Shown: one piece after another, positions 2,632-39,600 of the stretch
Layout: each line of letters begins with the position of its first letter
How positions within the stretch are numbered: the stretch's first letter is position 1
Origin: Perkinsus olseni
Lineage: Eukaryota
DNA: 50,299 nt
NCBI GenBank assembly: GCA_013115125.1
Contig: JABANN010000230.1
Coordinates: forward strand, 1-50,299
Direction: 5' to 3'
Program-made: the position numbers and the translations under genes
The notes under the pieces: model-generated
The model's database searches: none
What the model was told of the DNA's origin: nothing
The model's input: the letters and a program-made list of their open reading frames with translations, nothing else

Positions 2632-2633
2632 CT

Positions 2634-13398: not shown

Positions 13399-15685
13399 TC
13401 ATGAACCATCGGTATCACTACGTCGGCAGGAGACCCCGAGGGAAGAGCCGTCCGAGAGCCCCCTTACTTCATCGGCGCGGCCGGGCTCTGCGCGTTGCTG
13501 GAGGTCCACGCCTCTGGTCCCACCAGCTTCACTGCTGATTCGGTCGACACGGGCGTCTGACAATCCGACTGTGGCACCGTGCAGCACAGCCCTTCTCCAT
13601 CCTACCGAGGCGGATCCGGTCTTCAGGCCGGCCAATGCCTGGGCCCTAGCTGCTTCCCGAGCACGCTCCGCCTGACAGGAGCGGGGACCCACATTTGGGA
13701 GGAATTAGTGGGCGCGTCGCGAAGATACGGGATAGATACGGGGGATAAGTAGAGAATTGAGGATACCATCTTATGTCAATGGCGGGCCCATCCATTTTAG
13801 CGGTGGCAAGCCCAGGAGCCGTAGCTCAATTCGGTTGCGAAAAGCCTCATATTATATGACCCGCTATAGCGTAACAGTCTAGTAATGCAAGTAAAGAGCG
13901 AGAACGATGCATCCTTCTAGAGGCTAGTTGCCGTGGTGACAACAATAACATTAATATCTTCTTCACTTCGAACCTTGAGGCTGTCGAGGTTACATGAGCA
14001 CTGATGCGCTCTCCAAAATCAGCCAGACCCGATTCCCTCAGAGGCATTCTCCCGCCAGACACACCTCACGATTCATCTCCTCCTCGTCGAAGCGTTGAGC
14101 AGATAACTTAGAGTCCACAACCTCCTGCTTCGTCTTGAGCCATGATGATGTGAAGGATATCTGGTACGACAACAGGGCATGCCTCTTGGACGAATCAACG
14201 CCCGCCTCTGGTAAACAGAATGACCAAAACTAGTCCACGGCAGGTACAAAATGTATAAGCTAATTAGTTACTGCAAATTTCCGGACGCTTCCGAAATGAG
14301 AGAAGACCCGGGATTTCTCCTATACCTAAGCAGGCGTGAAAGACAGTGCCCTCTCACGTTCACAAGCATCTCCTTCTCTGTATTAACCACCATACTCCTC
14401 AGAAGGAGTTGTCCTCTCTTATCAACCCAACCAGCGTTGATGAGATGGTCTAAGTCCCCTTGGAGATCGAGGAGGCCCGTCCATCCCCTGAGCGATGACG
14501 TATACCACTCCTACAAGGTACGAGCCCTACACTGTTGGCTGCTGTTGGGTGAAGGTGGTCGGGCCGTACCGGATGATGGACGTGCTCGGGCACCTGACTC
14601 GAGCTAATGCGGGCAGATGTAGTCCACGGGTCTGCGAGATTCAGATCGCCAATTCTGTCCCTAATTATCACAACTTCGCGTCTGTTTTCACACTATTGTA
14701 GCTAGATAGATTAAAGCTAGTCTCGATGTTCTTCCCTGAGGGAAGTTCCCTCTCGTAGGAACCCCCCTCTCTTCCCCTCCTTTGGCTAGTTCCCACAACC
14801 ACACTCCACCCTACTCCCTCGTGTTGTGACACCGCACGTCGACCTCAAGATACTACTTTAAATTCGGAATCCACAGCATGACCTGCCGCCGCAATCCCTC
14901 AGGATGCTGCCGCCACAGTTCTGCTGCTGATTCTGAGGAGACCAGCTCAAGCGTTCGTTGCGAAGTCAGCCTCCTACGCTGGTTGTCTGCTTCGACCAAG
15001 ACGTTGACTGATAACCAAGTATCCTGCGCCGTGCTCGCCTGGCCCGTCCCCGCATAGAAGTAGCTGCACAGATGGTGAGAAACTCGCTACCACAACCGAC
15101 GGCTCACCCTCTGGGGTAGATCTGCAGACGATGTTTGCACTTTCTCTCGGAGTCCCAGATCTGCTTGCCGAGCATCATAGCACTCTGTGGGCCGAACCTC
15201 GATCGAGGGTCCCGAGCCAGGCAAATCACCTATTACGAATTGGGAGATTTCGTTCTCCTGCGCAACGTGACGATTGCAAATTTTCAGTTTTTTGAACGGA
15301 AAAATAGCCATTTTTGGCAAGTGTAGGAGATGGTGTCCTCGGGGCTACGGCTTTTCTCAAGGCAGTGGTACCTGCTCCGTTTCGTGAGCTCGTAGAGGCG
15401 GTAGGATCTCCCTCATCTCCTCGGAATACTCGATGTTGGTTGTGGCCACTGAAAGAAGTCATCATTGCACAGAGGATAGTCTACAACGTTATCACACGAG
15501 AGGTAGGTGGTTCGATCCCTCCCCTCACCATTACCCGTAGTGGATCCCCTCCACTGCCCAGTATCGGTCCAGTTACTCGCATCCTCCCCTCCAACAGGCG
15601 GCGGCGGAGGGGGAGGAGGAGGAGGAGGAGGAGGGAGGAGGGACTGCTTCTGCTGTTGGGGTCGACGGGGGTACTTAGACGTCAT
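13399..15685 (-). CDS. Multi-exon MATH/TRAF-domain protein with poly-Pro N-terminus
   Basis: Manual exons give HRLQIYPRG, TWLSVNV, and GWTGLLDL...LINAGWVDKRGQLLLRSMVV, in the order of the MATH consensus. Splice phases not fully resolved. Confidence 0.6.
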
Positions 15686-16274
15686 CTTTCGTTGCCCCAC
15701 AGAGCCTTTGCCGCCGCCAGTGATACCTGTTCAGTAAACCTGCTGTCAGCAAAGACTCGCACTTTTTCGGAGAAACTTCAGGAGTTCAGCAGTCAGCACT
15801 TTTGAGCAAGCTGCTAAACAGTCCCGAGAAAAGACCAAGACCATCCACTTGCCCGCCTTTTGTGGGGCCCAATGTCCGAGCGACTGATCACTCGGGTGAA
15901 AACAAAACCGCAAGCTCGAGTTCACTTCAAAATTTGCCAGGAAACTATTTCCGTCATTCTACCAGTCAATAAGCGCACTTTTTCAACATGTAGCACCCGA
16001 CGGCCGGCGCCTGTCCAACCTCTTTAAGGGTCGTGAGCGGGGTGACACACATGCCCACTCGATGCCGCATATTTCTCGAGCGCATTCATTCTTCACCCGA
16101 TGACTCGGAAGAGTCTCCGGGCTCGGAGTAGTACTACCCGTCTTAGCTTGCTTGGCAGCATCACCAGTCAAATCAACGACATCTCCCTGCTGCTTCCCAT
16201 CTTCCCCTTCTCGCTGCGGGCTCGCTATAGACAACCTACACGCCCAACTGCAGTACCATCGTCGTCGTCCCTTC

Positions 16275-19200: not shown

Positions 19201-20540
19201 GCTAGGGCCACCACGTTGGGAACGGACGGGACTTCCGCGGGCGGAGGGTTTTGGAAGGGAGGAGGAGATGTGGCAGACAGGACAGACGCTACGGCAGGGC
19301 AGACGATTGGCCCTCCAGCCTGATAGGAGAAGTCCAATATTATGAATGAAGGTGATCGTCGCCTCTCACTTGGTCCGAGGGCGTCGCCGGCGTCTTGACG
19401 GTCTTGCGAGTCTTAGCCGTTTGTGGGTAGGGGGTCGGATCCGCGCACTGACAGTGTCGTGTTATACCTGACCTTTTCTGTAAGTGACAAGCATGAGCTA
19501 AAGATTCTCAAGAGGACGATGATGGCTATGATATGATGCTCTCCTACACTGCTGACACTTCATACACCGTCTCTGGTGGCAACCACACTTCACTTCACCC
19601 ATGCTTGTATAACTGATCCCTGGGATGCGGGGTGCCGGGATTGAACCTCCGGTCTCCGTCTGTAACCCGGTTGTTGACGATATCCCGCGGTAGGCAACTG
19701 CAGCACCAGCGGCACTCAGAGCACTCAGTGAGTTGGCCAGTACAACGCTATTATTCTATCAACCCCAGTCCCGACTATTTCCTCAGAATATTTTACAACT
19801 TCCCAGTGATGCCCCCTTGTTCTCACCAGGGCCGCTTTCTTCGGTCTTCATGGCTTTCAGTGGGATGGGAGTCTCGCTGAGGCCCTCTCCTGGACGCTTC
19901 CTCGACGACGCACCACCTACACAGCCTCTCTACAACACAGGCTGATAGCCATGCCCCTACCCTCTCCGGTGCAGATGCAGTGTAGCGCGACACAGTTACC
20001 GCACACGGCGCCTGAACAGCAAAAGTGGTACATCCGAGGCGGCGGAATGTCGAGAAATGGTGAGCGGTCATCAACCGCACTCTACTCGAAGACGAGAATG
20101 ATGAGGCATGCTACGTGGAGGATGATCTGTCCTCGCGGCCCATGGGTGATGGTGATGTCAACTCCTTCAAGACTCGGCGTATGTAGTTCGGTCTTGGCGT
20201 AAGATAGACAGAATTAGTATATTCTGTGGTATTAATATATTAATTATGTACTATTGAATGGCATTATATTATTATTAGTATCAACATTAATTAGTAACCA
20301 GCACGTGTAAATGCGGTGACTGGCTGCACATATGACGAATTGGGTCATTCTACCGTTACCGTTCTAATTGGGTCGTTCGCGAAAACCGCTGTAATAGGTA
20401 TTATAATAATGATATATCTAAACTTAATATATAGTTATCCCCAACATCACATCAGAAATGCGGCGTGTGACGGCGGCAAGACAAGACCCATTCCATTCTC
20501 CACTTCCATGCAGCGGGCCATATACGATATACTTTCACAG
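16275..20540 (-). CDS. Multi-exon protein with repeated Cys-rich segments and Gln/Pro-rich C-terminus
   Basis: Exons encode CCSGAVCGNC..HCIC, CSECRWCCSC, CGCHQRRCMKCQQC and CPCHHRKCDRCGLC..CSIQCPCRCC. The 338-aa Q/P-rich ORF lies at 16275-17291. Both ends uncertain. Confidence 0.6.
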
Positions 20541-20607
20541 GGGGGTATGCATGAGAAGACGGCGATGTGTGGTACTACATAATACAGGTATCGAGAGCAG
20601 ACTGACT

Positions 20608-22700
20608 ACATCGTTTGCTGCTGTTGCTGTTGCTGTTGCTGTTGTTGCAGCGGCATGTGGGGGGGCATGTGGCATTCTCCTTCTTAATTCCTAATTTGGC
20701 TTGGACCTAGTGAGAGCAGAGAATGACTACTCATCCTTTCCGAACCTTCCCCGAGGTACATCCGAGCCGAAGCCTCCTCGGCGACAAGTGCAATGCTTAG
20801 CAAGACATTTGCGACAATCTTTGCATCGCTTCGCTCGGCCGCGGCGATCGACTGAATATCTATGATGCTGTTCGACGGTAGGCGAGAGGTCTTACCACAG
20901 TCGCTGCACTTCGCCACGGGCCATTGGACTCCCTTACCGAATGAGTACTGATGCACCTTGGTACCTGAAAATCGGGGAAGGTGTGGTATTGCATTTTTCA
21001 TGCATGCAGGAGTTGAGCGACGCAGCGATACCACCGCTCTTACTGGCTGGGAAATGCGGCAACCCGCTGGAAGTATTCGAGGAATCACCAATCTTCATCC
21101 TTGGACAAGAGGTGGGGAGCGTCTCCACTCGATGAGCCGTTCCATGGCGATACGTGATAGTCACCAGACCAGTCGCTGAAACCACAGCGCGATTAGACTA
21201 ACACGCCATCGTACACGTTTGGCAGCCCACCATCCCGGGTTCTATTCCCACGAGCTGCGCTCAGCACAGTCATTACCTGTCTGGTTATTGGTTATTCTCG
21301 CCCTACACCAGACCTCATCTTCTCCAGGCGCATTCTCCTGCCCCGCCAACACCGACACTGGGCATCCAGGGTCAGCCGCTATCTGATGACCGCGCGCCAC
21401 GAAATTGCCAAAGACTCCGCATCCTAATCTCCACGCACCCTTTTTGACCCCATGACTGCTCGGGGACTCAGCAGCCTAGCCAGCTTCACCCCGATATCAC
21501 ATCCCATCGTCTTAGCCGAGGCGTAGGTATCGATCCACTGGGCATAGACGAATCTAAGCAAGTGTGATAGGGGAGGATGTACTCTCCTCCGTGAACTCGA
21601 GCGAAGCAGAGAGAAGCGTGCGTTCGACGATAGCCTCCTGCAGGCGGACTGTGTTGTCCAACGCACGCTCGGGACTGAGACTTAACGCATAAGCGGTGAA
21701 CAAGAGGATCAATCTAACACCATGAGTAACCTTGCGAGCCCCAGAGAGTATGTTCGAGCTACTCGAATGCAATTATATCACGCCCATGGCGGCGGAATTT
21801 CAGGTTGAAGCAAGCTGCTCGCAGATTGGTTAAATTAGGTAACCGTCGTTTCTCCTGCGACGATGAGAGGCGCCGCCCATACTACTTCGGCATTCGAACA
21901 GATTCCTCAAATCCGAGAGCCTGGAAGAACCCAATGGCCTTCTGATCCACGCTGCTGATAACCTCGGTGAAACCTACGAAAGGAGTGGTACGGGTAGCGT
22001 GTGCGAGCCTACCCTACTACCTTCATGGACCCACTGTTGCATCAACGTATGCAGCAGACTCCGACCGTACCCCGAACCCCGATAGGCCTCAGCGGTCGCG
22101 ATATATGCCAACTCGATGAAACCAAACTTATAATGACGCGCTGAAGAGAACAGAACTCTCAATGCCAAAGTACCACGACAATCAACGAGCGATTCTCATA
22201 TTATCGTGATGGTTGCAAAGCCATCAATAACAGACAACTGGAGCACCGATTGGAAGCACGAACTCCCAGAAAACTCAGAGAGGTGCAACGTCGGTCGTAG
22301 CAAGAGAGTCGGCGCGAACGTCTATTCGATTTGGACGCACAACGGCGGACAAAACTTGTGAACTCTCGGTGGGGCACTATGCTTCACCGGTAAATTCGAG
22401 GATGTACTCCAATCTCCTAGACTCGAGCCTCGTTCACGGCCGAAGGAACTCATGGCGCTCCATACAACAGCCCCTGCTATAAGCTGGTTCCCACTTCCGC
22501 ACTGCGCAGTATGATCTCGCCACAACGCCCCCAGAAAGTCAGATCGTGCATGCAAGTACAGTTAAACACGCCCTACAGCCGATGCAGCTCTCGAATACGA
22601 TGGGTTCCATTCGTTTTCACAGGTAGCATACTGTACATGACGATAACACTACTTCAGCTTGCATGCTAAATTGGCGATACATCTGTTCGCGTATCGAGAT
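20608..22700 (-). CDS. Multi-exon GNAT (GCN5-related) acetyltransferase with CW-like Cys motif; may extend upstream to ~24.6 kb
   Basis: FIELAYIATAEAYRGSGYGRSLL (acetyl-CoA motif A), AIGFFQALGF (motif B), and WPVAKCSDCGKTSRLP. Confidence 0.75.
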
Positions 22701-23132
22701 ATTACTCCCCTTATGTAAAACTTAGCGCTATATTCTACGAAGCTCAGTGACCAAGGCGCGAGATGATAACTAAGTGTGATCTCAGACTTTTCCAAATGTC
22801 GCTTCCCTCGTTCCCAAGGCCGAGGCCTTGACAATTATCAGGCCGGAATCGGCTCAACTGCAAGCGCTGCGCGAGAGAGTTTCCACTACTTGATCAAGCG
22901 CCGCCGACACATTCTCGAGAATTCGCCATTACGACCGCAAAATGCACGATGCACATACCATAAAAACTTCTTCAGCGATTACTACAACCCTCGTTAAATG
23001 AAGCTGCTCCCTCCCAGATTGGGTGTCCCAATACTACCAAAGACCGCTGCACTGACGAGATCGCCATCACCGCCGTCCAGAACCAGCCCCCAGCACTCGA
23101 ACCGGCTAGTACTCGAAGAAAAACTGAAAGAC

Positions 23133-23205
23133 GAAGCGTACCAAGAATCGAACCGAAGACCTTCCGCTGCTGAAACCAGAAGATTAACGAACTGAATTAT
23201 CACAT
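23133..23205 (-). pseudogene. Degenerate full-length tRNA-like sequence
   Basis: GATGTGATAATTCAGTTCGTTAATCTTCTGGTTTCAGCAGCGGAAGGTCTTCGGTTCGATTCTTGGTACGC has an A-box-like stretch, AGGTC and a B box at tRNA spacing. Confidence 0.55.
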
Positions 23206-25039
23206 CGACTTCTCCACATGTCCCTCGGGCAAGCCTGGTAGTGACTCTTGTAAAATACTGACAGCATCCCATTTCCTCTCCACTGACATCGCCGGGCACA
23301 CTACGTGCTTCCCTTGTCTCACCGAGCCACTGAAATTGGAAAGACGATGTTGAAATAGTCGGCGATCTCCATCCGCCGTGAACGCTTGTCACCAGCGCAG
23401 CAGCAATGAGTGTGACAACATCAGTCCGCTGGTGATGGTACGATGGCATCTCACACGAGAACGATCACTAAACAATTTGAATGCGAGGGAAAATAACATC
23501 CGTTATCCCTAAAATAACAGGCAGGTGGCTCTCGATGAGCTTCCAGCCTCCACCCTTCCCCGAGAATCCCAGGTTAGATCCAAACGGCGTATTACATAGA
23601 CTCCACTTTAACCGATCCATCCTTCCGTTGACTAACCGAAGCACTACTGCTATGCAGTGACTCCTTCTTCAGTCGTACACATGCCCGTTGTGTTGCCAAG
23701 TCAGGGTCGTTCACTAGGATGCCGGACTCACCATTAAACATTCCCGAGAGTGGCGGCCGGTACAGAAGACGCCGGGCCGGCGAGCTCGTTGCGGTGCCTA
23801 AGAGTGAAAACACTTCAAGCAGCTCGTCACACGCAGACAGTGATATTATTATTTGAGGTATTGAATTGAGGGGGTTGATCACAATAATACTGTTTTCTGT
23901 ATAATTTTTATTTTCTTGCCGAGCGACCGAAGCTGTCCGTTTTTTGGTACAGTATCCAATAGTTGGGCGAATTACTAAAGTTTTCGGCACAAATTTGTCG
24001 TAAGTTGAAGCGATGAGAAAGAGTATAGACAAACTAAAACTTCCGCTGGCCGTTCTCTAGTAGCCTTACAAGACTGGCGTGAAAACGAGCGCATTAATTC
24101 GAAGCACCACGTAGTACTGAGCAGGAAAACTACAAAGAATGCGATAGACAGAGTGAAGGTAGAGATCCAGTGACGTTGTAGGATAGAAAGAGTAATCTCG
24201 TTGTATTTGGAGAATGGCGAAGTAGATAGAGCGTACTAGGGGTAGATCGACCCCCTCATCTCCATACTACCCTTGATGGCGTTTTCTACGGTCTTCAAAG
24301 GTGTTGTTGGCCTTCGAGCAGCAACAATGCTATCGATGGTCGCGAACAGAGGGGTGTAATCTAGCTTGCGTGGAGCCAATCGTACCGTTGGTACCACTGC
24401 CGACTGCTGGTGGCCTGTTGGGGTCGATGCTCTGCCCGCTGATATTACTGATAACATCAAAAGGTGAGTACTGAATTTGTCAAAGTGAAAGTGCGCATCT
24501 TGCACTCTTGCTCTCACTTGCAATTACTCTACACGGACGCGTTTGGTAACTGTCGCACACCCGAAAACTGGTGTCAAGTCAACGGATAATTCCCTAAGTG
24601 ATCCCTAAATTCCAAGGAGACATCCTTAGGGATCTGGTAGCCCACTCGGGCTTCGAGAGGGGTCTCGGGTTTTTTTTCTCACGGACACCTCCTGCCGTCC
24701 CCCGCAACTCGAAGTTTCTCTTTGCAGCAAAGACTTTGCTACCTTTTCTGGTTGCTCGCGGTTCCTTGAATTTTGTCCTTTGCCCTACTCATCGAGCAGT
24801 GCTCCAAAGACGCCTTGAAAGCACGGGTGGAGCTTAAGCTGTTGCCAACAGCCTGCTTGTGACTCTTGGCGGCAAAAAATGTGCTTGATCGTCCTCATGC
24901 GCCTCCCTGTTGCGGTTGGATCTAGTCCTAATAATATCAGTTTTGTCGTTTAACGACATTCCCTATGTACACGCCGCCCTTAGCGTTCCTTCCTCTGCTG
25001 TACGTCGTCCGGAGTGCCGCTAGCACATACAACCCAGTC

Positions 25040-27370: not shown

Positions 27371-28268
27371 GTAGTTACTAGTAGGGCCTATTACCGGGGC
27401 TTTACACGCCTATTGCCGTGACCCCCATGCTCCGACCAATGCACTCAGGGGCAGTAACCAGTGGCAGCAGCATCTCTCAACCAATGCGCAGTACACACGG
27501 TGAACACGATCAAATACTGAACCAAAAGTAAAAGTGGTGAAGGTAACGAGGAGATACAAAGACTAATCCGCATCCAATCTAGCCAATGCACAACTCGGAC
27601 AGTACCATGGCCATGGTGCACTAATCCGATTACTGTAACCGTAGCGGCGAATCGACAGCGCCGAGACGAGAAGGGGAGGGCAAAGAAAGGAGCCTCCTCT
27701 AAGGAGGGAATTTGTACCGCCTCTCAATCACCACCAGTTGGGTGATCGTCGAATTCGATATAATCGGCCTAGCTCTGCATACTCTGAATGAGTATCACTC
27801 CCGTGTCACTCCATCACGCCACGTTGAGGCGCTAGGCCACATGGGAGGATCGCAGAGGCGATGTGGACTGACCCGACGGCTGCCGACCGAAGAACGACAA
27901 ATCATAGCTTTCTTGCACTCTTGCATCTTCTCGTCTTTCCTCAATGCCACTGATAACTGCGCCACACTGCGCGGTACTACCGCGACGGCTTGAGTCTCGG
28001 CGGACTATCTATTGTACAAGAGAGTTTGTTGGTCTTTCAACAACTCTGAGGGCTTCTTTCATGCCTCCAGTCGGCGAAGAGGCCGGAGCATGAAAGTATA
28101 TCGGCAGGTGAAGGGTCGTACGCGTCCACCCGGTGGACTCCGCCGATCTTTGCTTTTCACCACGAAGAGCCTCGCGAACCGCTATATGCTGATCAACTTA
28201 AGCTCGTTGACAACACATTTTCCCGCTTTGCCTTGTTTGTAGTAGACCGTTAATTCGCCGTACACCAG

Positions 28269-31200
28269 ATGACGACGCAGTACATGGCTGTCTCGAATGA
28301 AACAGAATGGGAAGATCCCAAGCCTGTAGTCCCCGCAGGTCAGTCAACCTATGATGGCTGGGCGACCCTTCAAGGCGCCTATTCTTATCCTATTTCCTCA
28401 GTACTCCGCCACTTCACCTCAAAGTCCTGCTACTCTTGTTATCTTAGTATTTGTTAATGTCCAGCTCTGGCGGTGGTGGCAGCGGCGGCGGTGGTGGTAG
28501 CGGCAACTGGTATAGAGGGCATAATAAGAATCAGCAGAACTATCCTACGGTACTAATGCTGATGGGAATCGTGGAAAGTCTGTTCTCGTTATGTCGTTTC
28601 TCGCTCGTCTCGGTCGAGCCAGCCATCCTCGTGTTTTACTGACCGGCAGCCAAGATTTAAGCGTAGCCACAGCAAGACTACAATAACTGCGGCACTTGTG
28701 GGTATAGGAACTGACTGTTTACGCTCATTTCTCGAAGGAGTGGTAGCTGCTGGGAACTCCCCTGTGAAAATTATTTTCATTCAGTATGGCAAATATGGGG
28801 GTAATCGTCAACAGCATCAAGGAGTCGGTAAGAAGTCTCAACCCGTGGTGATGAACCAGAGAGTGCAGCAACAGCAACAGCAACAGCAGCAAAGTAGTAA
28901 AGCCTTGATGATGTCGGCACGAGACTATTCGCTGACGCTGAGGTTACTCCTCGGGCCTTTTACTTCTATAGTCATTCTCGTGGGTGATGAAGATGGGTGT
29001 TGCTCGTCAGGGACATCTTCGCCTAGCGGACCATCAGCCAGAGCGGCCCTCACACGATCACTCACTTCGAGCAGTTCAGCCACTACGAATGAACCAGTCG
29101 CTGACCGGATGTCGGAGTTGAAAAGGAAACTTGTGGAAAGTCGTGGAGGTAGTTGAAGACCTGTGGCTTTTAGTTCACTCAGTGCCACCGGTCATTATCC
29201 GGTCTCAGCTGAGTTCAATAATACCGTTGCTGGTGCAGCTCTAACGTTGCGGCGTGGAAAACTGCAGCATGAATCGGAGATGTGAAACGCATCGGCCATT
29301 GGGTAGATTTACCAGAAATGAGAATCGCGGATGCTGATAGCGGCGGGGATCTCTGCCGAGCCTCCCCAATTGGGGTGAACGATCGGCGAAAAACACATGC
29401 TTCGAGGCTGACTTGAGGCCGGCTTGTTGTTTGGACGTTGTGTTGTTCGGCATGTCCGAGTCGGCCCCGAGCGGAGACTTTCAAAGCGCCGCTCTATCAC
29501 CGGGGGGAAGATGTTCAACAGGAGAGTAGATGATTGAAATGGAGATTTCGGGGTGTTGACGAAGTTTGTTTATCACCTTGGAAGCTCCCTTGGAATCATC
29601 AGGTTTAACTGCGGATTTATCGGCGATGCAACCCTCGGCCGAATCAGCAGCTAAAATCCCGAAAGTGGCGGCTAGGGGTGGCAGGGGTAGTGTCACCACG
29701 GAGCAGTCTCAACAAGTTCATATACACCCACGGAGAGGAGGGGGTAGAGGGAGCTCGGCTACGCCAAAAGTAGAAGAGATATTGAGGGTCGACGATTCAC
29801 CCAGCTCCCATGTTTTGGTCGCCTTCGTTGTGTCGCGATTTACGCGGTTATCAACCTCCGAACGAGAGTTATCAACTTTCTAGGGTACGCTGTTTTCGTC
29901 TCAGAAGTCATCAGCGTCCAGCCCATCTCATGGCGTCCCCAAGGCGGGAGTGAGAGCCCCTGCGAAGGTCGGTAAACAGATCAGAGTGCAGCATCCCCCT
30001 CCTCCCGCAGCGTCGATCGTTCGGACAGGCTCGGCAGCAGTAGCGCATGGAGTGCATCTGGTAGGCCTTCTCGGTGAGTATGACTGTTCGGGCTGGACAG
30101 TTAGAAGATTTACGTGTATTGTGAGCATCACAGCTGGGGATGAGAAGATATTAACCATGGAAATGTGCCAACCGGGAATTGAACTTGGGACCTCGCCGTG
30201 ATCATTGCAGGCGAAGCATAAACCGCAAACAACGCCATCGCCACCCCCTCCCAAGGCGACTGCCCATCCAATGCGGCGTAGGAGGGGGACGTCGCCAGCC
30301 GTCAGTGAAGGCAGTGGCAGCAGCGACGCCGCAGTGGCCCCGCCGACGATGCCGGTCCCCCTACTGTCAACAAGTGGTGGAAAGAATCTTCACCAGCATC
30401 ATAAGGTGATCCTAGCAATCTGGAGTGTCGACCGACTTTCTGATGAGGGTAGTCAGTCCAAGTCGTTTGGAATGATATTCATGGTCTTTGAGAGCTACCA
30501 CACAAGTCCGGTAGAGGGCAAGGTCTCCGTTCGGTTGTGACCCCTTCGATTCACCACCTTGCCGCTATCGATGATCGGACTGTGAGGACTGATTCTCCTG
30601 TCCGTAGGCCGTCCAACCCAAATCATCGGGGTTAGCTCATCAACATCATCAGCAGACGGCGGCGACACCGAAGAGTAAACCTGATGATGGGAAGGTAGTG
30701 AGAGGGGGGAGGGAGGGTGAGAGTCGCGCTGTGATTCTCGATTCAACCTCTAGGCTCGTGCTTATGTGGTTGGCTCGCCCGTTGATCTATCGTGCGCTAC
30801 TTGAAATTGTTACTGCCCGCGGTAGGGTAGTGAGAATCTAAGCTCGATTCTGGCGCGTTTCAGAGCCAAAGATACTTAGTTGGTGAGCGTATCACAAGAG
30901 GCTCCTGTCGCTCGGTTCAGTTACTGGAGCTCATACCTGCTCAAGTGACATCGAGTCCGCCCACACTGCCGTCTTCAGCGAAAAGTGCCCCGCCGCCGGT
31001 AGCTGCTCATAAACCCACTTCCCCGGTATGGTTATCGCATAATTTTGTGGCACGTGACGGAATTTGGGTGGCTTGTAGGAGGTGCCGAGTAGAGGCACGC
31101 ACTCGGCGGTTAGCCGGCTACGTACAATAGAACATCTCAGAGCGAAGAGAGCGCAGCAGCAGATCTCGAAAGAGGTAGCAAGGCTGGATCGAACCAGATA

Positions 31201-32066
31201 CCTTCGGATGGGGGTGCGCGTGTTCTACCGTTATGCCATAATTTCTCGTAGCATCCAACACCGAAGGCGACCCCAAGCGTTGCAGTGCCCTCAACGCCTA
31301 AGCCTGCTGCAACGCCGTTGCCTCCACCTCCAGTAGCTGCTGAGAAGACAGTAATTGGAGGCTTGGTCGCTGCTACCGCTCAGTGGCCATTCTGAATTGC
31401 CAGCAGGTACCCAAGCCTGCTCCCAAGTCTGAGCCGACTCGGCCGGGCTTTGAAGGAGGCGAACAGTCATTGACGGAGAGGATGTTAGAGGCGGTGTTGT
31501 CGCAGCTTATTGACACTCATAGTCAATGGTAGAAAATGTGCAGCTTCGCTCCGCTCTCATTTTGCTGTATTTTTAGGCTGGTAGAACACTGCGGCGTGGA
31601 GAAGGAGTCCCTGCAGCCGAGACCAGTGGATGTTACCGCCATGGACCTCTCTCGGGTGGAACAGATGGTTCTAGACGAAACGGCCAACTTTGAAACCAAG
31701 CTCAAGGCTTCCTCGCGGTGAGATTTCTGGGAGGGGAGCGTTCGGTTTTTTCGTACGCAAATTTTCTCGAAAGAGAAATGACGCAGTCGGCGTGAAAAAA
31801 GTTTAGCGAAAGATGATGGTGAGGAGATGGGCTCTGAAGCTTTTGTAGTAGGAAGGGTCTTCGGGCGTGGGATTGAGCAGTTATCGCGCGCCACGAAATG
31901 TGTATCCTGATCAGGTATCTTGACGCAGTTCGACCAGTGTTGGATCAGCTACCGAAGCTGACTCCAGCGGAGGAGGAATCTTTCGGTTTGCATCAGAAAA
32001 GTAAACCTCCTGCTTCTGCTGGACCGCCGGCAGCGGCCAAAACTTGACGATATTACAGTTGTCTGA
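28269..32066 (+). CDS. Multi-exon low-complexity (G/Q/S/P-rich) hypothetical protein
   Basis: ATG at 28269 followed by a series of coding-like segments separated by GT-AG introns. No domain recognised. Confidence 0.55.
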
Positions 32067-32223
32067 TAATGATAGTTTCCTAATCGCGTGGTTGGGGACA
32101 CGGTGATTGTGTTCAATTCAACCTGAGGGGACAGCCTCTTGTGTTGATAGATGCTCCCACCTGCTAGTATTAAAGTGCTCTTAGTTTCTGTCGGGCAGGG
32201 GCCCCTTGACTATTTATTCTTGT

Positions 32224-33528
32224 ATGGTGGTTTTGGTTAGCTTGCTGCCGCGTCTCTTTGGCTTCCTCTGGTTGGCGCTATCACAGTGCTCAGAAAGATT
32301 CGACGAATTTCGTGAGACGGCGTTAAGAAAGTTGAATACGTCGCCCGTCGACGGGCAGCAGGATATCGACTTTTATGGGTCAGCCCAGGAGGCGGGGGTT
32401 TTCGAGGGATCCCAGGTTGTCGACGAGTGCCCGGAAGCCCTGCTGGTTGCCTTGGCTGTCTTTATCGCTGACCAGTATCCTGTTACTGAAGCCTTGGAAT
32501 CTTTTGTTGCGCACGCGGAAGATTTTGAGGTTACCAATGACAATTATCTACGGCTGCTGTCTTATTATTTGCTACCTGCTCTCATGAGGGCCCCTGAGAG
32601 GGTCCTGGACGGTTGGTCGAAGTGGCACGTTGCCGAGGGCGTGCGAAGGCTTCAACAGATCGCCGTCACTCTGGACGACTTTATTTTATCGGCGTACAGC
32701 ATCCACGAGGTCACCGTTTACGACGAGATCTTGTCGCGCGCCACTAAATTCGACCAGCAGGGTTGGCAGCAGGTGGTGGATCTGTCCCTGGCTGAGGAGT
32801 CCGTGTATTCTCAGAACGGCGAGGACGGCGTCATCAGAGCGGCAGCTGAGGCCCTGGCTGACCTGCCCCAGTTTGTGGGGAAGGAGCGGTACTTCGTCGA
32901 GATCGGCGTCGGCAATGGCATTCAGTGCAACACCCGGGCCTTGAGGCTTGCTGCCTGGCGTGGTGTTATGTTCGACAAGTTCCGCAGGAATCCTTATGTC
33001 AACCTCTACAGGGAGTTCATCAGCGCCGAGAATGTCAATGATGTGTTGAGAAGGTATTCGGTGAAGCAGGATATCGCTCTGCTCTCAATCGACATCGACG
33101 GCAACGACTTCTACGTCTGGTCTGCTTTGAAGTATCTTAGGTCGATTCTGGTCATGGTTGAAATTAACGGTTCACTCGGCGCAGATGACAAGGTCATCCC
33201 GTACGACTCTGAGTTCGTTTCGGATGGCACCACTCATTACGGAGCGTCATTGCCAGCTATGGTGGCCTTGGCTCGCCTCAAGGGCTACGTCCTTATCTGG
33301 GCTAACAAGATAAACGCCCTCTTCGTTAAGGAGGCCTATGAGCATCGCTTCGCTCATGCAGGTTGGTCTTTTTTTGTGAATTTTGTCGCTCTAATTTTTC
33401 TATTCTCAGGTGATGTAAATTTCTGGATCCAGCTTGACGATGGCCATCCAGCGGACCCGCACGATCGCCCGTTCATTTCTAGTGAGGAGGCTTTGAGAAT
33501 GTGGCATGGTGAAATTGAGCTCTCGTGA
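32224..33528 (+). CDS. FkbM-like SAM-dependent methyltransferase-domain protein with N-terminal hydrophobic segment
   Basis: YSQNGEDG, FVEIGVGNG..CNT, WRGVMFD and LLSIDIDGNDFYVW motifs. Probable in-frame 48-nt intron at ~33362-33409. Confidence 0.85.
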   Translation: MVVLVSLLPRLFGFLWLALSQCSERFDEFRETALRKLNTSPVDGQQDIDFYGSAQEAGVFEGSQVVDECPEALLVALAVFIADQYPVTEALESFVAHAEDFEVTNDNYLRLLSYYLLPALMRAPERVLDGWSKWHVAEGVRRLQQIAVTLDDFILSAYSIHEVTVYDEILSRATKFDQQGWQQVVDLSLAEESVYSQNGEDGVIRAAAEALADLPQFVGKERYFVEIGVGNGIQCNTRALRLAAWRGVMFDKFRRNPYVNLYREFISAENVNDVLRRYSVKQDIALLSIDIDGNDFYVWSALKYLRSILVMVEINGSLGADDKVIPYDSEFVSDGTTHYGASLPAMVALARLKGYVLIWANKINALFVKEAYEHRFAHAGWSFFVNFVALIFLFSGDVNFWIQLDDGHPADPHDRPFISSEEALRMWHGEIELS

Positions 33529-33610
33529 TCTATCGGAGTGGTGTTTTTGGGTCTGGCTTGATGCTTAGCATTTTACATTTTTTCTATCAGTTTTAGTTTT
33601 TTCAATCGCC

Positions 33611-36600
33611 ATGGTAGCGCCTCAAGAATCCGCTAAACAACAACCGACTAAAATTGTCCCTTCGGAAGGCAAATCTGCCGTTGAACACGAAGTTGCCGCC
33701 GCTGAGGTCGTCGATGAGGGTGTCGAGTAAGCTGTACTCTCTTGCAATCTTGCATTTTCTCAGTTTTCTTATTGAGCAGGACGCAGAATTGTAGTCAGAA
33801 GGATGATGAGCAGGTCCAGCCGCAGTTGGACCAACGACAAAGGCTCATTTCAGTGGCCAATCGATTACCTTGTAAGCAGAAATGGCACATGTGGGAATCG
33901 AACCATAGACCTCAGGGTTGTGATACTTGTCTGGCGACCTGTTGAGCTATGGATGACTTTCTTTTCGATAGGTACCATTCATAAGGATAAGGCCACGGGG
34001 AAGTGGGTCGCTAGCAAAAGCTCAGGAGGCCTGGTGTCGGCACTGAGTGGTGTGAGCGGCATCGACATGCTTTGGATAGGGTGGCCAGGATGCGAGGTCC
34101 CTGATGAAGATAAAGCAGAAGTCTCGGAGTTGGTATGAATCACGTCCTGCTGCTGTTGTTGATTTTCTCGTTTATTATCAGGTGAAGGCACAGGGATGCT
34201 ATCCAGTGTTTCTCACTGATGCCGAGATCGAGCTGTACTACAATGGTTTCTGCAACAACACGCTTTGGCCGTTATTTCACTACATCACCCCTTCAACGGA
34301 ACGTAAGTCCAACATTCCTATTTACATTCGACGATTCTCGGTGTACTTCTTGTGATACCATGAAATCACCAATTCCTGATAATCATGCGGTATCACGCTC
34401 CGCGTAGTGAGAGTCATTCATATTTGTATTTGAGTATTCATATTTGGTAGTGAAAACCACGCGGATCACTTTTGGTTGTATCGTGCTTCGTTCGTCAGGT
34501 GTGATTCAGCGCAAGACGTTAGAATGGGAAACTTATCAAAAGGCCAACGCTAAGTTTGTAGATGCCATCATGAAGGTAATGCTCTGCGCATGAGGATACT
34601 ATATCGACTTCGATGTCGTCGTTTTCCAGGTTCTGCACGACAACGATCTGGTATGGGTTCATGATTATCATCTCATGCTGGTAGCATACCTTACCACCTT
34701 AGCCGGGCGCCGCTGTGGACTGTGTTGTTGTAGGTGCCCAAGCTGTTACGAGAGCGAGTTCCTAACGCCAAAATTGGCTGGTTCCTTCATACACCCTTCC
34801 CCTCTGCTGAGATCTACAGGATGCTACCGTAACAATCATAATCAACATCGAGAGTGGCTTATTGTGATTTTTACTCAGGCAACGGGAAGAACTCCTACAA
34901 GGTCTATTGTCGGCCAACTTATTGGCTTTCCATGTAAGACGACAACAGGCATTTCTCGCCGGGAATCTTAGGTCGAAGCGTAGCACTCATGAATTGTGTT
35001 GCGTGTCCCCGCGCTGCCTTCCTGGCTCGTGGTGATGCCATTGGTCCGCATCAGGTACATGACTATGTTCGACATTTCCTGTCCAGCTGTGTGCAACTAA
35101 CCACCTTAGAGATCACTCCGCAAGGAGTTGACGCTACACCCCTCAATGGCAATTTTGTAGGTCCCCGGTTCGAATCTCAGTGGAGGCATTTTTTCTCCTC
35201 TCTCCGTAGGTGAAATGCACTACTATACCTATTGGCATCGACCCTACTTCATTCACCTCAGTAGCTGAGTCTCAGTCCGTGGCAGCACGAGTGGCTAGTT
35301 TGAAGGAGCAATGGGGCGACAGAAAAGTCATCCTTGGTAATATGCCTTACATACACTATGTTGTGGAAATTGAGGATTTTCATATTTTATAAATGATAAG
35401 TCATCGGTTTGCAATTTTCCGTCATGCATCAAAATGAGAGTGCGATGGCTTGAGAGTATGCTCAGGAATCGTCGGAATTCCTCCTCGTTTTTCTCTGCCG
35501 TTGGCACCCTCTTCCAAATTTCTCGGCTGCGCGTTTTGCTCCTGCCTTGCGGTAGGCGGGCCCATCGTGGTTCATTGTGGTTGTGTCACTCATCAGGTAT
35601 CGATCGTCTTGACTACATCAAGGGTATTCCGCACAAGCTGAAGGCGTTCGATATGTTCCTGGATGACCATCCTGAGTGGGCATCCCAGTGCGTCTTAGTA
35701 AGAGGATATCACCTTCAACGGCAAAGGGACTCACCATTTCTTTCCTCAAGGTCCAACTGGCTATTCCCACCAGAAGTGAAGTGCCTGAGTATCAGCGGCT
35801 GAAGCGACAGGTGAGCGGTGGATGTCGAGTCACGGGTGTCAGAATGAGTGGAGTGTATCAGGTTCACGAGATGGTTGGGTCGATCTGCGGAAAGCATAGC
35901 AACCTATATACTGGTCCACCTGTTATCTATCTGGATGGATGTGTTGATCATCAAGAGCTGGTATGTGGCGTTTTGTCCTGGCGGTTATGCTTATGTTCCC
36001 ATTCGCGAATGTCCCTGGTTCGATCCTTGCTGACGGTGTTTTTCAGACTGCCCTCTATAGAGTAGCTGATGTTGCACTCATCTCGTCCATCCGTGATGGT
36101 ATGAATCTGGTAGCCTACGAATACGTGGCCTCTCAGCAACACAAGTAAGCCCGAGCGTTCGTCTGTAGGAGTTGGTGGAAGTGTGGTATGTAAATGAATG
36201 TACTGCTTCTTCAGGAACGGTGTTCTGGTCATCAGTGAGTTTGCCGGAGCATCGCAGTACCTCGGGGCCGGAAGCGTAAGTCAGCTTTATCGTGGTCTTC
36301 GTGACCGTTTTACACCGTGTAAAAATCTCCGTCTTAGATACGAATTAACCCATGGAACCTTGAGGAGGTGTCTTGGGCGATCTATGAGGCTCTGACTATG
36401 GGTGAGGACCGCCGAAAGGAGATGCACGAGTATTGCTTCAACTACAGTAAGCATGCCTGCCTGTGATATCGCGTTGCTCATCTTCGTTGATCAGTTCGTA
36501 ACCACAGTGCCCAGCGCTGGGCTGAGACGTTTATCGAAACTCTGAAGGATGCTTGCGCTCAGCGGGAGGAGGTCTCCGCTTCGGTAAGTTTGTTCACGGT

Positions 36601-39600
36601 GTTCCATTTCGTCTGCAATACCGTCCTCATCGCAGGTGTCCCCTCTGGTGCCCTTCGATAACGTGTGCCGTTCTATCGAGGCTAGCAACAAGCTTCTGCT
36701 GGTAGGTTGCGGTGGGTAGTTAAGCTTACTTTTTTTGCCCGCAATACCACACCAGTCGTAAATCATCGGCGGTCTGTTCAGGTATTGGATCTCATGGACT
36801 GCCTCGTCCCGTCTAAGACAAGGAGAGGAGTGCCGGCCAAGCTGTACCAGTCTCTTATGTCGGTACCGAAGGACCTCATGGCTAGTCTAGGCCGTCTGGC
36901 CAGTGATAAAAGTGAGAAGCGGCTCAGGTTCGATCCTCGCACCTGTCATTCCTCAATCATTTATCAGATACTATAATGGTTGTGACGACCAGTCACTCTA
37001 AGCAAATCTTAGAACGTCTACTCGGTCACCTTCCGATCTACTTGTTACCCGAGAACGGCTGCATTTATCGAACGTAGGCCGCCGCCGCCGCCGTCGCCTT
37101 GCCTCGTCTATAGTCTACTATTATCACTTCCGGCCGTTAGCACTGCGAGGCGCATCGGCTGCGTGTTCTCTGCTCTTACGGAATATCCGTATCATATATA
37201 GATCCTTTCACTATATATGAAATTTTATTAGTACTAACAGAAAATTGTATGTATCGAAGTGGAAAGGAAGCTCATAATAAATAAAATATCAGGAAATAGC
37301 AGGAAAAAATTTATGCTGAATTTCATTCAATTTAATCAATTAATTGTATTCAGTTGAATATCGAGGAGTCATTTATGGTTAGTTTAGTTTGATTTGCTGA
37401 ATCTTCTGATCAAATTTTAGAAACTGTTTTTTATTTAATTTGATCAATCAATTTTGTTTAATTGGATATTACAGAATTATTAATGGTTCGTTCAATTCGA
37501 TCGAGTGATTTTTATTACTCATTGGAAGTGATTATTAATTAACTAATCTTATTCGCTTGAATGCAGTTTATAAGACTGTTATAGATTATAGTGAACTTTA
37601 TTAAATATGAAAATACCAGTAGAATGAGTACCACATTTTCTCCAAGTAATGGTGGTGACCACTCGTTTCCTGCATTTTCAGTCCCGAAGGCGAGTGGAAG
37701 TACGCTGATGCCCTCGGATGCAGCTGCGCGACAGCAGAAGACAATTCGCTTGCTGAGGTAGGGAGCGCGTCCGTGCTAGTTTGATACCACTCCTTCTGCG
37801 AATCATAGTATACCCTCGGTTCTTCAGGTTGAGGAAGGTACAGAGTCCGCTGCAGGCATCAGCTCTCCTCGTTCGCGTGCTGCTTCTTCTAGTGCCGACA
37901 GTGAGTTCTCGAGGTCCCTGGTTCGATCCCATGCTAGATCATTTATTCAGCTTCGGACCACGGTTGGATGAACGGCGTCGAGGAAGTCCTACGGTATTTC
38001 CAAGAGAGAACACCCGGCAGCTACATTGAGCGAACAGAGTGAGAAGCATCACGAGCCTTTCCAAGTTGCCACTGTCTTGTCCTTCTCTTCAGATTCAGTC
38101 TAAAATGGTTCTTCGATAACACACAGACTGACTTTGGTGGTCCTCAAACTAGAGACCTCATGATACAGCTCTGGGCTGGCCCGCTGGTCAACGCTGAAGC
38201 AGAGATTGTCGTTGGCAACAGGTAGGGGTCCGCAGCGCGGTGGAGATGGTTCGAATTTTTGGGGTATCTTTTAGGTATATTGAGATTCGACCTAAAGATT
38301 CTTCGATTGCGTCCAATCTAGAGAAGATACTCCATCATGAGATTCTCGATGCTGACACAACGTCTGATTCCAAGGTACCACGATTTAGCTAATTTGCATA
38401 TGTTCGAAAGACTTGGCGCTCGCCCTCAGGTTGACACTTGCGTCGTTATCGGCGCGTACCCCTTCCGTGATCAAGATGTCTATCAAGCAGTGGAAGACAC
38501 GCTTGTTCAGCAATGGATACCCAAATACACTCGGTAAGTTTTTTCGCGCGCCACGAAATTAGCGACCGTTGGAAGGACGGTGCCAGACACCACGGCTGCC
38601 CACCCAGTGTCTCGTCGTCGTCCATGCGACACTCGAGCGCTGATTGCATCATGGACGTGATGGGCTGTGACGCTTTGCGATTGAAAGGGAATCCTCAACA
38701 GCTTTCCCAGCTAAAGTGGGTTTCTGTCAAAATGTCGTCTGCGGGAATAGAACCTGGGTCCCTCGTGTGTCAAACGTGTGTTCTATCGTTCAGACCTATC
38801 CAAGATGGTGGCAAAGACTCTCTTGAATACGAAGGTGAGTCGACTGTACTGCCCTCTACCGATCCTTATCATCGTCTATTCAGGCGAGACGGCTGTGAGC
38901 GGCCACGACGTTTTGTACGAAGAAATGGTCAAGTCGCATACTCTAACGTAAGTTTTGGGTCATCACCTCGCTATCATTATCACTGTGCTGCTTTCCTCAG
39001 GCACCCTACTCGACAGACGTCTTCTGCTGACAACCAGTTGGACTTGGAGCCGCCTACAGCTGTAAGCCTGTTGAGACCTTCTCATTGTTTTCGCCCTCGC
39101 TCGGCTGCCTGTGTTGAATGATTTGAGCGTTGTTAGGCTGCGAGCGCATCGACTGCATCAACGTCGTTCCTGGACGAGTCATCGCCAACTGAGTCGACTA
39201 AAGAGGATCTACAGCGCTTACACGACTCCTATTATTCAGTGGCCGTGGGGCAGTGTAAAGTATCCAAGGCGAAGTAAGTACATCATTCTAGGAAGCTCAT
39301 TATTAGCCACACCTCTATTTCTGCTGTGCATCGTCATGGGTTTTCTTTCTTGCTGTTCGCTCTTCTTCGGGTTTTGGAGTTCCATTCTCGCGATCATCAA
39401 TATTATTATTATTGATGTGTGTCTCACTTCCCACACTCCCCCTTGTCAGATATTCTATCCCAAACACTTACTATGTGGCCAATCTTGTCCATGATATTGC
39501 GACGCACCTACCGCAGTCGCCAACGGGTAGCAGCGCGGCCAGCACCAGCAGTACTAGTGTCAGCAACAAGAGCGTCGTCGCCGAGCCTGCCCAAGCTGAG

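What the first reader, a model, noticed from the sequence alone, without database searches (positions are those of the whole stretch)
15481..38793. Spliceosomal introns made largely of decayed tRNA-gene fragments, in both orientations
Seen: at least seven TPS introns contain tRNA-like pieces. These are 33872-33971 (antisense, full length), 34681-34733 (antisense 5' half, GGCGCCCGGCTAAGGTGGTAAGG), 35157-35209, 35961-36046, 36912-36967, 37901-37941 and 38716-38793. Similar pieces occur in probable introns of other genes (15481-15528, 19620-19666, 30164-30203; weaker at 13815-13840, 23133-23205, 47483-47508). The pieces resemble different isotypes (Gly-, Leu-, Val-, Thr-, Asn-, Asp-like) and do not share one SINE body. 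They often fill most of a 50-100 nt intron. Inference: intron sequence here is created or turned over by capture of tRNA-gene DNA, for example during break repair at highly transcribed Pol III loci. I know of no description of this as a systematic intron source.
Basis: partly seen in the sequence, partly recalled or inferred. Interest (0 to 1): 0.85.

Follow-up and report, generated by a model that had tools for sequence, protein, structure and literature searches.

The report
tRNA-gene relics inside tiny Perkinsus introns
In this stretch of a Perkinsus (oyster and clam parasite) genome, about a dozen very short introns carry the recognisable tail end of a tRNA gene, which suggests that copies of tRNA genes have supplied or even created introns here.

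Summary
The window is Perkinsus nuclear DNA. The TPS gene (33611-39633, +) has 31 short GT-AG introns, supported by RNA contigs and by unbroken alignment with relatives' proteins.

The tRNA B-box GGTTCGAWYC occurs 9 times against 0.33 expected. Twelve sites share one tRNA-gene 3' module: variable loop AGGTC, T arm, discriminator A, then a T run.
- Six lie in supported TPS introns and none in TPS exons.
- Two lie in supported introns of other genes (30061-30210, 15449-15528).
- Two lie in introns that are only predicted, and two are unplaced.

Both orientations occur. In three 50-56 nt introns the module is 61-68% of the intron.

Not confirmed:
- ARAGORN and Rfam call none of them tRNAs.
- tRNA 5' halves (A box) are not enriched.
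- The piece at 34681-34733 and the isotype labels are unsupported.
- The other 24 TPS introns score no better than shuffles.
- No shared SINE body was found.

My best reading (0.45) is that inserted tRNA-gene units became these introns. The main rival (0.35) is littering of pre-existing introns. Deciding needs Perkinsus genomes, which were not available here.

The parts
33611..39633 (+). Trehalose-6-phosphate synthase/phosphatase (TPS) gene. It has 31 GT-AG introns (2921 nt, median 54 nt) and a 3102 nt coding sequence.
   Evidence: An exon is 92% identical to P. marinus TPS proteins carrying PF00982 and PF02358. tblastn of P0122 covers 33611-39522. RNA shows 15 of the introns. The spliced model has an open frame and aligns without breaks to relatives.
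33872..33971 (+). 100 nt TPS intron. The tRNA 3' module is antisense to the host at 33879-33912, with its T-run end 7 nt from the 5' splice site.
   Evidence: RNA joint in 4 of 4 runs. Exact B box. Leave-one-out score 30.0 bits. Geometry. No Rfam tRNA hit in a 126 nt search.
35157..35209 (+). 53 nt TPS intron. The sense module at 35159-35192 makes up 64% of the intron: AGGTC, T arm, discriminator A, then six T.
   Evidence: RNA joint in 4 of 4 runs; (29.0 bits).
35961..36046 (+). 86 nt TPS intron. The sense module at 36009-36042 ends 4 nt before the 3' splice site.
   Evidence: RNA joint in 4 of 4 runs; (25.3 bits). It shares a 16-mer with the piece at 37920 (read).
36912..36967 (+). 56 nt TPS intron. 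The sense module at 36919-36952 makes up 61% of the intron.
   Evidence: The junction is continuous in P0122 and P0124. Found by my gene finder. (28.1 bits). The RNA joint was not among the 15 displayed.
37901..37950 (+). 50 nt TPS intron. The sense module at 37912-37945 makes up 68% of the intron.
   Evidence: The junction is continuous in P0122; (21.4 bits). The RNA joint was not displayed.
38716..38793 (+). 78 nt TPS intron. The antisense module lies at 38729-38762, and its B box has one mismatch.
   Evidence: Relatives' proteins show that 38587-38715 is an exon, and they join QLK to PIQDGG across this intron. (25.6 bits).
38222..38274 (+). 53 nt TPS intron with a weak sense B-box-like piece near 38248.
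   Evidence: Score 4.4 bits, p 0.01 against 200 shuffles of the intron. The junction is continuous in relatives. This is weak evidence.
30061..30210 (+). 150 nt intron of another + strand gene. The antisense module at 30160-30193 lies next to the 3' splice site.
   Evidence: One RNA contig joins 29905-30059 to 30210-403 (table 8). (25.5 bits).
15449..15528 (-). 80 nt intron of a minus-strand gene (coding from 17048 down to about 15399). The module on the + strand at 15501-15534 is antisense to the host, and the 5' splice site lies inside the acceptor-stem part.
   Evidence: Homologue P0127 (about 90% identical) maps to 15730-15536 and then 15452-15399, skipping this stretch. (14.7 bits). No Rfam tRNA hit in a 121 nt search.
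23124..23203 (-). Predicted 80 nt intron with a sense module at 23129-23162, ending about 5 nt before the predicted 3' splice site.
   Evidence: The intron comes only from my gene finder. A stop-free frame also runs through it. Module: (15.5 bits). A homologue search found nothing.
19620..19666 (-).
   Evidence: Module: (14.4 bits). The intron is not supported: my gene finder read this stretch as exon, and no RNA joint was displayed.
31170..31203 (-). Module in non-coding DNA between two expressed + strand units. A 77 nt GT..AG unit at 31175-31251 (+) would hold it antisense, with the same layout as 15449-15528.
   Evidence: (19.6 bits). Its placement is unresolved.
21230..21263 (+). Module whose B box has one mismatch. 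Its placement is unresolved.
   Evidence: 12.1 bits. It lies only in an unreliable predicted minus-strand intron.
34681..34733 (+). A real 53 nt TPS intron whose claimed antisense tRNA 5' half is not supported.
   Evidence: RNA joint. The A box is not enriched. Module score -23.9 bits, p 0.995.
3230..4972 (-). The window's only detectable tRNA genes: Met-CAT at 3230-3302, an Ala-like one with a broken acceptor stem at 3380-3451, and Val-AAC at 4898-4972.
   Evidence: A matrix built only from intron pieces scores the Val gene at 13.6-18.0 bits and the Ala-like one at 6.9-14.1 bits, among the best hits outside the training set.

Best explanation
These pieces are relics of tRNA-gene units that were inserted into genes in either orientation. 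Each has a variable loop, T arm, acceptor 3' strand, discriminator base and the oligo-T that follows a tRNA gene. Some may have further 5' sequence that is now unrecognisable.

The likely source is the amplified tRNA gene families of Perkinsus, copied either as DNA or as cDNA of primary Pol III transcripts.

I read the insertions as the origin of these introns, because unit and intron cover the same stretch. Introns of 78-100 nt have the size and layout of one tRNA gene plus splice sites. Introns of 50-56 nt consist of a 5' splice site, the 3' module, a pyrimidine tract and AG.

**Shown:** the module, its enrichment, its restriction to introns where it can be placed, and its geometry.

**Inferred:** that insertion created these introns rather than refilling old ones, and what the source and route were.
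For: 1. **Enrichment.** B box 9 against 0.33. 11-mer 17 against 3.3, and variable loop plus B box 6 against 0.42.
2. **tRNA-gene flanks at fixed spacing in 14 candidates**:
   - AGGT at positions 44-47 in 7 of 14 (p 2e-14).
   - At least 3 T in positions 74-77 in 7 of 14 (p 2e-6), including 3 of 4 pieces antisense to the host, where splicing cannot explain a T run.
   - Discriminator A in 9 of 14.
3. **Coherent family.** Leave-one-out scores are positive in 12 of 14, and real tRNA genes are among the best hits outside the training set.
4. **Placement.** 6 of 6 TPS modules lie in introns, which are 48.5% of the gene (p 0.013). 8 of 12 lie in supported introns and 0 of 12 in a supported exon.
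5. **Geometry**. In 7 of 8 supported introns the T-run end lies within 17 nt of an intron end. In 4 of the 5 longer introns it lies within 13 nt; my hand estimate for chance is about 0.01, made after seeing the data.
6. **Source and route are plausible.**
   - P. marinus has more than 500 copies of five tRNA genes (PMC3706591, sections 10 and 13 read).
   - Relict spliced-leader sequences in P. marinus genes point to reverse-transcribed RNA re-entering the genome (PMC3101222, passages read).
   - A retroelement-like ORF lies in the window.
Against: - No tRNA detector accepts any piece.
- Outer T-stem pairing is near random. Free pairs form in 29 of 56 cells against 37.5% by chance, and most of the excess is the 52-62 pair. 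The sources were either not intact tRNAs, or the core is kept while the rest decays.
- There are no target-site duplications. Junction ambiguity is 1-3 nt for three module introns and 0-5 nt for the 12 others.
- The 5' halves are not detectable.
- I found the pieces by their B box, so 'always the 3' part' is partly a result of how I searched.
- Relatives' proteins cannot show whether those species have these introns.
- All of this rests on one 50 kb window and a crude gene finder outside TPS.
Confidence: 0.45

Rival explanations
1. Generic tRNA littering. The same relics landed in pre-existing introns, which are the main neutral DNA of a compact, intron-rich genome. They were then trimmed by deletions toward the roughly 50 nt optimum. 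They say nothing about intron birth.
For: - Pieces also occur outside supported introns, at 31195 and 21238.
- There are no target-site duplications.
- The modules are decayed.
- Median intron length is 54 nt, so any surviving insert must fill most of a short intron.
- Finding pieces by their B box hides other fragments.
- The tRNA gene copy number in the genus is high (PMC3706591, sections read).
Against: - In 4 of 5 longer introns the T-run end of the unit lies within 13 nt of an intron end, where free placement would scatter it.
- In 15449-15528 the donor GT itself lies inside the acceptor part.
- A 50 nt intron offers only about 20 nt that can accept an insert without hitting splice signals. 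This last point is inference.
Confidence: 0.35
2. Maintained B-box sites. The intronic B boxes are kept by selection as binding sites for the Pol III factor TFIIIC, like extra-TFIIIC sites. The function would be at the DNA level, so orientation does not matter.
For: - The B-box core and AGGT are far better kept than the T-stem partners.
- The score distribution has two separate groups: 12 sites at 22 bits or more, and background at 9.3 bits or less.
- The other 24 TPS introns show nothing.
- The A box is absent.
- Both orientations occur.
Against: - Finding the pieces by the B box inflates its apparent conservation.
- TFIIIC sites need neither the variable loop, nor a discriminator A, nor a T run at fixed spacing, yet all are present.
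- There are no occupancy data.
- The properties of extra-TFIIIC sites are recalled, not looked up.
Confidence: 0.1
3. One dedicated mobile element. The pieces are copies of a tRNA-derived SINE or introner family with its own consensus, not captures of ordinary tRNA genes.
For: - T stems do not pair, as in many SINE heads.
- The pieces at 36017 and 37920 share a 16-mer and a similar tail.
- Four antisense pieces share ATCAC about 12-19 nt upstream of AGGT.
- The matrix consensus is coherent.
Against: - Self-BLAST of the window finds no significant similarity between any two pieces (17 repeat pairs, none of them a tRNA-like piece).
- The acceptor-equivalent 7-mers all differ.
- There is no common tail, terminal repeat or target duplication.
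- A single 50 kb window cannot exclude a family.
Confidence: 0.07
4. Chance or a splicing signal. The motif is a compositional accident, or it is a branch-point or enhancer motif of Perkinsus introns.
For: - The sense copies lie 27-43 nt before the 3' splice site, where branch points lie.
- No tRNA detector accepts them.
Against: - 0 of 100 shuffles reach the observed count.
- Flanks specific to tRNA genes occur at fixed spacing.
- Half of the placed copies are antisense.
- Only 6 to 8 of 31 TPS introns have the motif.
- Two of the module introns carry a separate ATCAT-type element nearer the 3' splice site.
Confidence: 0.03

Closest known systems
Introners and introner-like elements (Micromonas, fungi, dinoflagellates and others)
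   Same: A short inserted unit covers the same stretch as a short spliceosomal intron, in many genes.
   Different: - There are no near-identical copies, terminal repeats or target duplications in this window.
- The content resembles a tRNA gene.
- The main texts of PMC9860276 and PMC12130899 hold none of the words tRNA, SINE or Perkinsus (term look-ups only, and their supplements were closed).
tRNA-derived SINEs
   Same: A Pol III B box, a tRNA-like variable loop and T loop, a trailing T run, and decayed stems.
   Different: - The A box is not enriched.
- There is no shared body or tail.
- The demonstrable length is only about 34 nt.
- SINE properties are recalled, not looked up.
Intron gain by filler DNA during double-strand break repair, or by transposon insertion
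   Same: Foreign DNA placed in an exon is spliced out. Review PMC3443670 (passages read) lists both routes among seven proposed mechanisms.
   Different: - That review's main text does not contain the words tRNA or SINE.
- The short flanking direct repeats it describes for break repair are not seen here.
Extra-TFIIIC (ETC) sites
   Same: An isolated B box without an A box, away from tRNA genes.
   Different: Here the B box comes with tRNA-specific flanks and a T run. Occupancy is unknown. The properties of these sites are recalled.
Amplified tRNA genes and tRNA-targeting Dada transposons of Perkinsus marinus
   Same: The same genus has hundreds of tRNA gene copies: 349 Leu, 116 Gly, 46 and 9 Ile, 23 Tyr (PMC3706591, section 10 read).
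   Different: That paper describes intact genes and transposons inserted in them. It does not describe intronic relics. No Dada-like ORF was recognised in the window (Pfam).

Membership tests
tRNA gene | A cloverleaf recognised by a tRNA detector | tested here: not met
   - ARAGORN at default settings finds only 3230-3302 and 4898-4972.
- Rfam RF00005 hits only the three genes at 3.2-5 kb.
- There is no hit at E<=10 in 33500-39600, 15430-15550 or 33860-33985.
- Relaxed ARAGORN is not above shuffles.
tRNA gene | Paired T stem | tested here: not met
   Free pairs form in 29 of 56 cells, against 37.5% by chance and 100% in an intact tRNA.
tRNA-gene-derived sequence (relic) | B box with variable loop upstream and discriminator plus T run downstream at tRNA spacing | tested here: met
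   Real tRNA genes score positive with the matrix built from intron pieces.
tRNA-derived SINE | Both A and B boxes of the internal Pol III promoter | tested here: not met
   B box is enriched but the A box is not: 1 against 0.62, and 17 against 19.2 with one mismatch. TAGCTCAR: 5 against 3.4.
tRNA-derived SINE | Many copies sharing a body and a tail | tested here: inconclusive
   No pair of pieces is significant in the window's self-BLAST. The genome was not available.
Introner | Near-identical copies in introns of unrelated genes | tested here: inconclusive
   None in 50 kb. The one 65 nt repeat, 37732-37796 and 48958-49022, is not tRNA-like. Needs the genome.
Introner | Terminal repeats or target-site duplications at intron ends | tested here: not met
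   Junction ambiguity is 1-3 nt in three module introns, the same range as the 12 others.
Extra-TFIIIC site | B-box consensus without Pol III gene features | tested here: inconclusive
   B box present and A box absent. A T run at terminator spacing is also present.
Extra-TFIIIC site | TFIIIC bound, Pol III absent | not testable with these tools
   No occupancy data.

The most novel reading that the evidence does not exclude
In Perkinsus, ordinary tRNA-gene units, or cDNA of their primary transcripts, act as intron-generating elements. A unit dropped into an exon in either orientation is spliced out more or less as it stands. This would be a recurrent, Pol III-derived source of spliceosomal introns, different from all described introners. 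The kept B box may additionally bind TFIIIC.
Probability: 0.25. Interest if true: 0.8.

Novelty: new variant of a known kind. Interest (0 to 1): 0.55.

Why it matters
How new spliceosomal introns arise is still an open question. The known intron-generating elements are mostly DNA transposons.

If tRNA-gene units seed introns in a lineage at the base of the dinoflagellates, that would add a Pol III-derived source. It would also tie intron gain to the unusual amplification of tRNA genes in this genus.

Public Perkinsus genomes and RNA-seq could settle the question quickly. If it turns out to be plain littering, it is still a useful marker of tRNA-gene mobility in a compact, intron-rich genome.

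Tried and rejected
**Data sources that failed or gave nothing**
- Whole genome: none is held.
- A metagenome scan with P. marinus TPS returned 80 loci, all 48% identical or less and without Perkinsus-like introns. No orthologous DNA was obtained. Those loci gave only 12 bacterial tRNAs, so I dropped the plan for my own tRNA model.
- Pfam on 20 ORFs gave nothing above the cut-offs.
- My first homologue search hit a bacterial-type FkbM methyltransferase and did not help with taxonomy. A homologue search for 23204-23464 (-) found nothing.
- Read laying showed only 15 of 57 joints, so RNA support for the other introns could not be read.

**Methods that did not work**
- My gene finder recovers 15 of 15 RNA-shown TPS introns. 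Over the whole window it fuses genes and invents micro-exons, so no window-wide intron, exon and intergenic densities are given.
- It first merged 38534-38793 into one intron. I corrected this from the relatives' proteins.
- Relaxed ARAGORN is not above shuffles.
- Narrow Rfam searches gave only weak unrelated hits.

**Ideas dropped**
- The variable-loop GT as the donor: in 35157, 36912 and 37901 the donor used lies 2-11 nt upstream of it.
- The T loop as branch point: half the copies are antisense.
- Most introns descending from tRNA units: the 24 other TPS introns equal their shuffles.
- The B box at 25744 (inside a 349-codon ORF) and at 3158: both fail leave-one-out scoring, at -12.4 and -1.0 bits.

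**Literature.** Searches for tRNA-derived introns found nothing on the point.

Full report
**What the window is**

GC content is 43-58% and exons are short. One exon (33974-34129) is 92% identical to two Perkinsus marinus proteins and 90% identical to one P. chesapeaki protein. All three carry trehalose-phosphate synthase and phosphatase domains. The window is therefore nuclear DNA of a Perkinsus species. No whole genome is held for it.

**Are the introns real?**

- RNA contigs from four runs of four studies all join across 15 displayed GT-AG introns of the TPS gene. A further 42 joints were not displayed.
- I wrote a small gene finder trained on those introns. At its stricter setting it recovers 15 of 15.
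- The spliced protein aligns without breaks at the junctions to the P. marinus and P. chesapeaki proteins.
- That alignment also showed that 38534-38793 is not one intron.
- The final model has 31 introns (2921 nt, median 54 nt) and a 3102 nt open coding sequence.
- Outside TPS, 30061-30210 is bridged by an RNA contig (table 8).
- 15449-15528 (minus strand) is skipped by a roughly 90% identical homologue protein, which maps to 15730-15536 and then 15452-15399.
- The introns at 23124-23203 and 19620-19666 are not supported by evidence.

**Are the tRNA-like pieces more than chance?**

Yes, but only for one part of the tRNA.

- GGTTCGAWYC occurs 9 times against 0.33 expected, and 0 of 100 shuffles reach 9.
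- With 60 shuffles, the 11-mer with up to one mismatch gives 17 against 3.3 +/- 1.9, and AGGTNNNNGGTTC gives 6 against 0.42.
- The A box of the tRNA 5' half is not enriched. It scores 1 against 0.62, and that one hit is the real tRNA-Met. With one mismatch it scores 17 against 19.2. TAGCTCAR gives 5 against 3.4.

**Anatomy of the pieces**

I laid 14 candidates out in tRNA numbering.

- 7 of 14 have AGGT exactly at positions 44-47 (p 2e-14).
- 9 of 14 have A at the discriminator position.
- 7 of 14 have at least three T in positions 74-77 (p 2e-6). These include 3 of the 4 pieces that lie antisense to their host gene, where a T run cannot be a pyrimidine tract.
- The pieces therefore resemble the 3' end of a tRNA gene together with its trailer. 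They do not resemble a mature tRNA, since none has a CCA end.
- In leave-one-out scoring, 12 of 14 fit the family at 12-30 bits. The two that fail are 25744, which lies in a 349-codon ORF, and 3158.
- A matrix built from the 12 gives 22 bits or more for each of them and 13.6 bits for the real tRNA-Val gene. Everything else in the window scores 9.3 bits or less.

**What they are not**

- No detector calls them tRNAs. ARAGORN at default settings and Rfam find only the three genes at 3.2-5 kb.
- Rfam finds no tRNA at E<=10 in the TPS region, or in 121 and 126 nt searches around the two 'full-length' candidates.
- ARAGORN at 85% thresholds does call 15449-15529, 30164-30244 and 38733-38809. However, its total of 10 calls is not above 40 shuffles, which give 6.25 +/- 2.3.
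- T stems pair in 29 of 56 free cells against 37.5% by chance.
- The acceptor-equivalent 7-mers all differ.
- Self-BLAST of the window finds no significant pair among the pieces. Only 36017 and 37920 share a 16-mer.
- The other 24 TPS introns score no better than their own shuffles (Fisher p 0.38; 2 of 24 below 0.05, at 38222-38274 and 39274-39449). The 31 exons give p 0.15, with 5 of 31 below 0.05, all at low scores.
- So there is a distinct class of module introns. There is not a continuum of decay across all introns.

**Placement**

- Of the 12 modules, 6 lie in supported TPS introns and 0 in TPS exons. Introns make up 48.5% of the gene, so p is 0.013.
- Two lie in supported introns of other genes. 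Two lie in unsupported candidate introns. Two (31195 and 21238) are unplaced.
- None lies in a supported exon.
- Among the 8 supported cases, 4 are sense and 4 are antisense to the host.
- The module (positions 44-77) makes up 61-68% of the three 50-56 nt introns and 23-44% of the five longer ones.
- In 7 of 8 cases the T-run end lies within 17 nt of an intron end. For the short introns this is trivially true.
- For the five longer introns, four have it within 13 nt. My hand estimate for chance is about 0.01, made after seeing the data. The remaining 31-59 nt on the other side are about what tRNA positions 1-43 would need.
- In 15449-15528 the donor GT lies inside the antisense acceptor part. 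A candidate 77 nt GT..AG unit at 31175-31251 repeats that layout.

**Mechanism**

*Shown:* relics resembling tRNA genes, restricted to introns where they can be placed, and often covering the same stretch as the intron.

*Inferred (0.45):* tRNA-gene units were inserted into coding sequence in either orientation and became introns. They were copied either as DNA or as cDNA of primary Pol III transcripts.

*Context from papers:*
- P. marinus carries 349 Leu, 116 Gly, 46 and 9 Ile, and 23 Tyr tRNA gene copies, together with tRNA-targeting Dada transposons (PMC3706591, sections 10 and 13 read).
- P. marinus introns are 39-1622 bp and mostly under 100 bp. Relict spliced-leader sequences in its genes suggest that reverse-transcribed RNA re-enters the genome (PMC3101222, passages read).

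*Main rival (0.35):* the same relics fell into old introns and were trimmed to the preferred size.

*Against birth:*
- There are no target duplications.
- The stems are decayed.
- I found the pieces by their B box, which biases what is seen.

*A point neither reading fully explains:* the core (positions 44-62) is much better kept than its T-stem partner strand. This leaves room for maintained TFIIIC sites (0.10) or a dedicated SINE-like family (0.07).

**Comparison with what is known**

- Review PMC3443670 (passages read) lists seven intron-gain mechanisms, including transposon insertion and break repair. The words tRNA and SINE do not occur in its main text.
- The main texts of the two large introner surveys (PMC9860276, PMC12130899) hold none of the words tRNA, SINE or Perkinsus. 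Their supplements were closed and might list Perkinsus.
- Five searches for tRNA-derived introns, Perkinsus SINEs or Perkinsus repeats found nothing on the point.
- I therefore rate this as a new variant of a known kind, namely repeat-derived introns. It is not yet shown to be a mechanism.

**Limits**

- The evidence is one 50 kb window.
- Gene models outside TPS are crude.
- The scoring matrix was built from the hits themselves.
- No orthologous DNA was available.
- The RNA look-up was capped at one call, with most joints not shown.

Noticed in passing
window 427-2768: Perfect 136 nt direct repeats (427-562 and 2633-2768) flank intronless minus-strand ORFs. One ORF (558-1868) has a weak retroviral-type aspartyl protease match (E 0.005, below the cut-off). 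It looks like an LTR-retroelement remnant, and it sits next to the tRNA gene cluster at 3.2-5 kb.
   Followed up: partly
window 3230-3302 (-): The tRNA-Met has an A1-U72 end and a T loop without TTC. From recalled knowledge this fits a eukaryotic initiator tRNA. The neighbour at 3380-3451 has a broken acceptor stem and looks like a pseudogene.
   Followed up: no
window 37732-37796 and 48958-49022: A 65 nt repeat, 95% identical, covers the last 26 nt of a TPS exon and the first 39 nt of intron 37758-37827. The second copy lies 11 kb away in the same orientation and is not clearly at an exon-intron junction.
   Followed up: partly
window 32185-33528 (+): Directly upstream of TPS lies a gene for a bacterial-type FkbM-family methyltransferase. 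It is up to 47% identical to metagenome proteins, and the named hits are bacterial or archaeal. It has a predicted 48 nt intron, so it may be a horizontal acquisition.
   Followed up: no
window 37190-37610: An AT-rich block of about 420 nt lies inside the 608 nt TPS intron, with weak terminal inverted repeats (24 nt, 71% complementary). It may be a MITE-like insert.
   Followed up: partly
window 40997-41086 and 11440-11531; 28866-28893 and 20614-20641: Two further short repeats: 92 nt at 83% identity (direct), and 28 nt at 100% identity (inverted). Read laying flagged the second as a skipped repeat.
   Followed up: no
window 35460-35523 (-): A weak C/D-box snoRNA-like match (sR17, 19 bits, E 0.51 in a 6 kb search) lies inside the 260 nt TPS intron, antisense to the gene. 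It is probably chance.
   Followed up: no
P0122 against the window, TPS residues about 538-560: The P. marinus protein model departs from the window and from P. chesapeaki around introns 36584-36635 and 36702-36781. This looks like an annotation error in that record.
   Followed up: no
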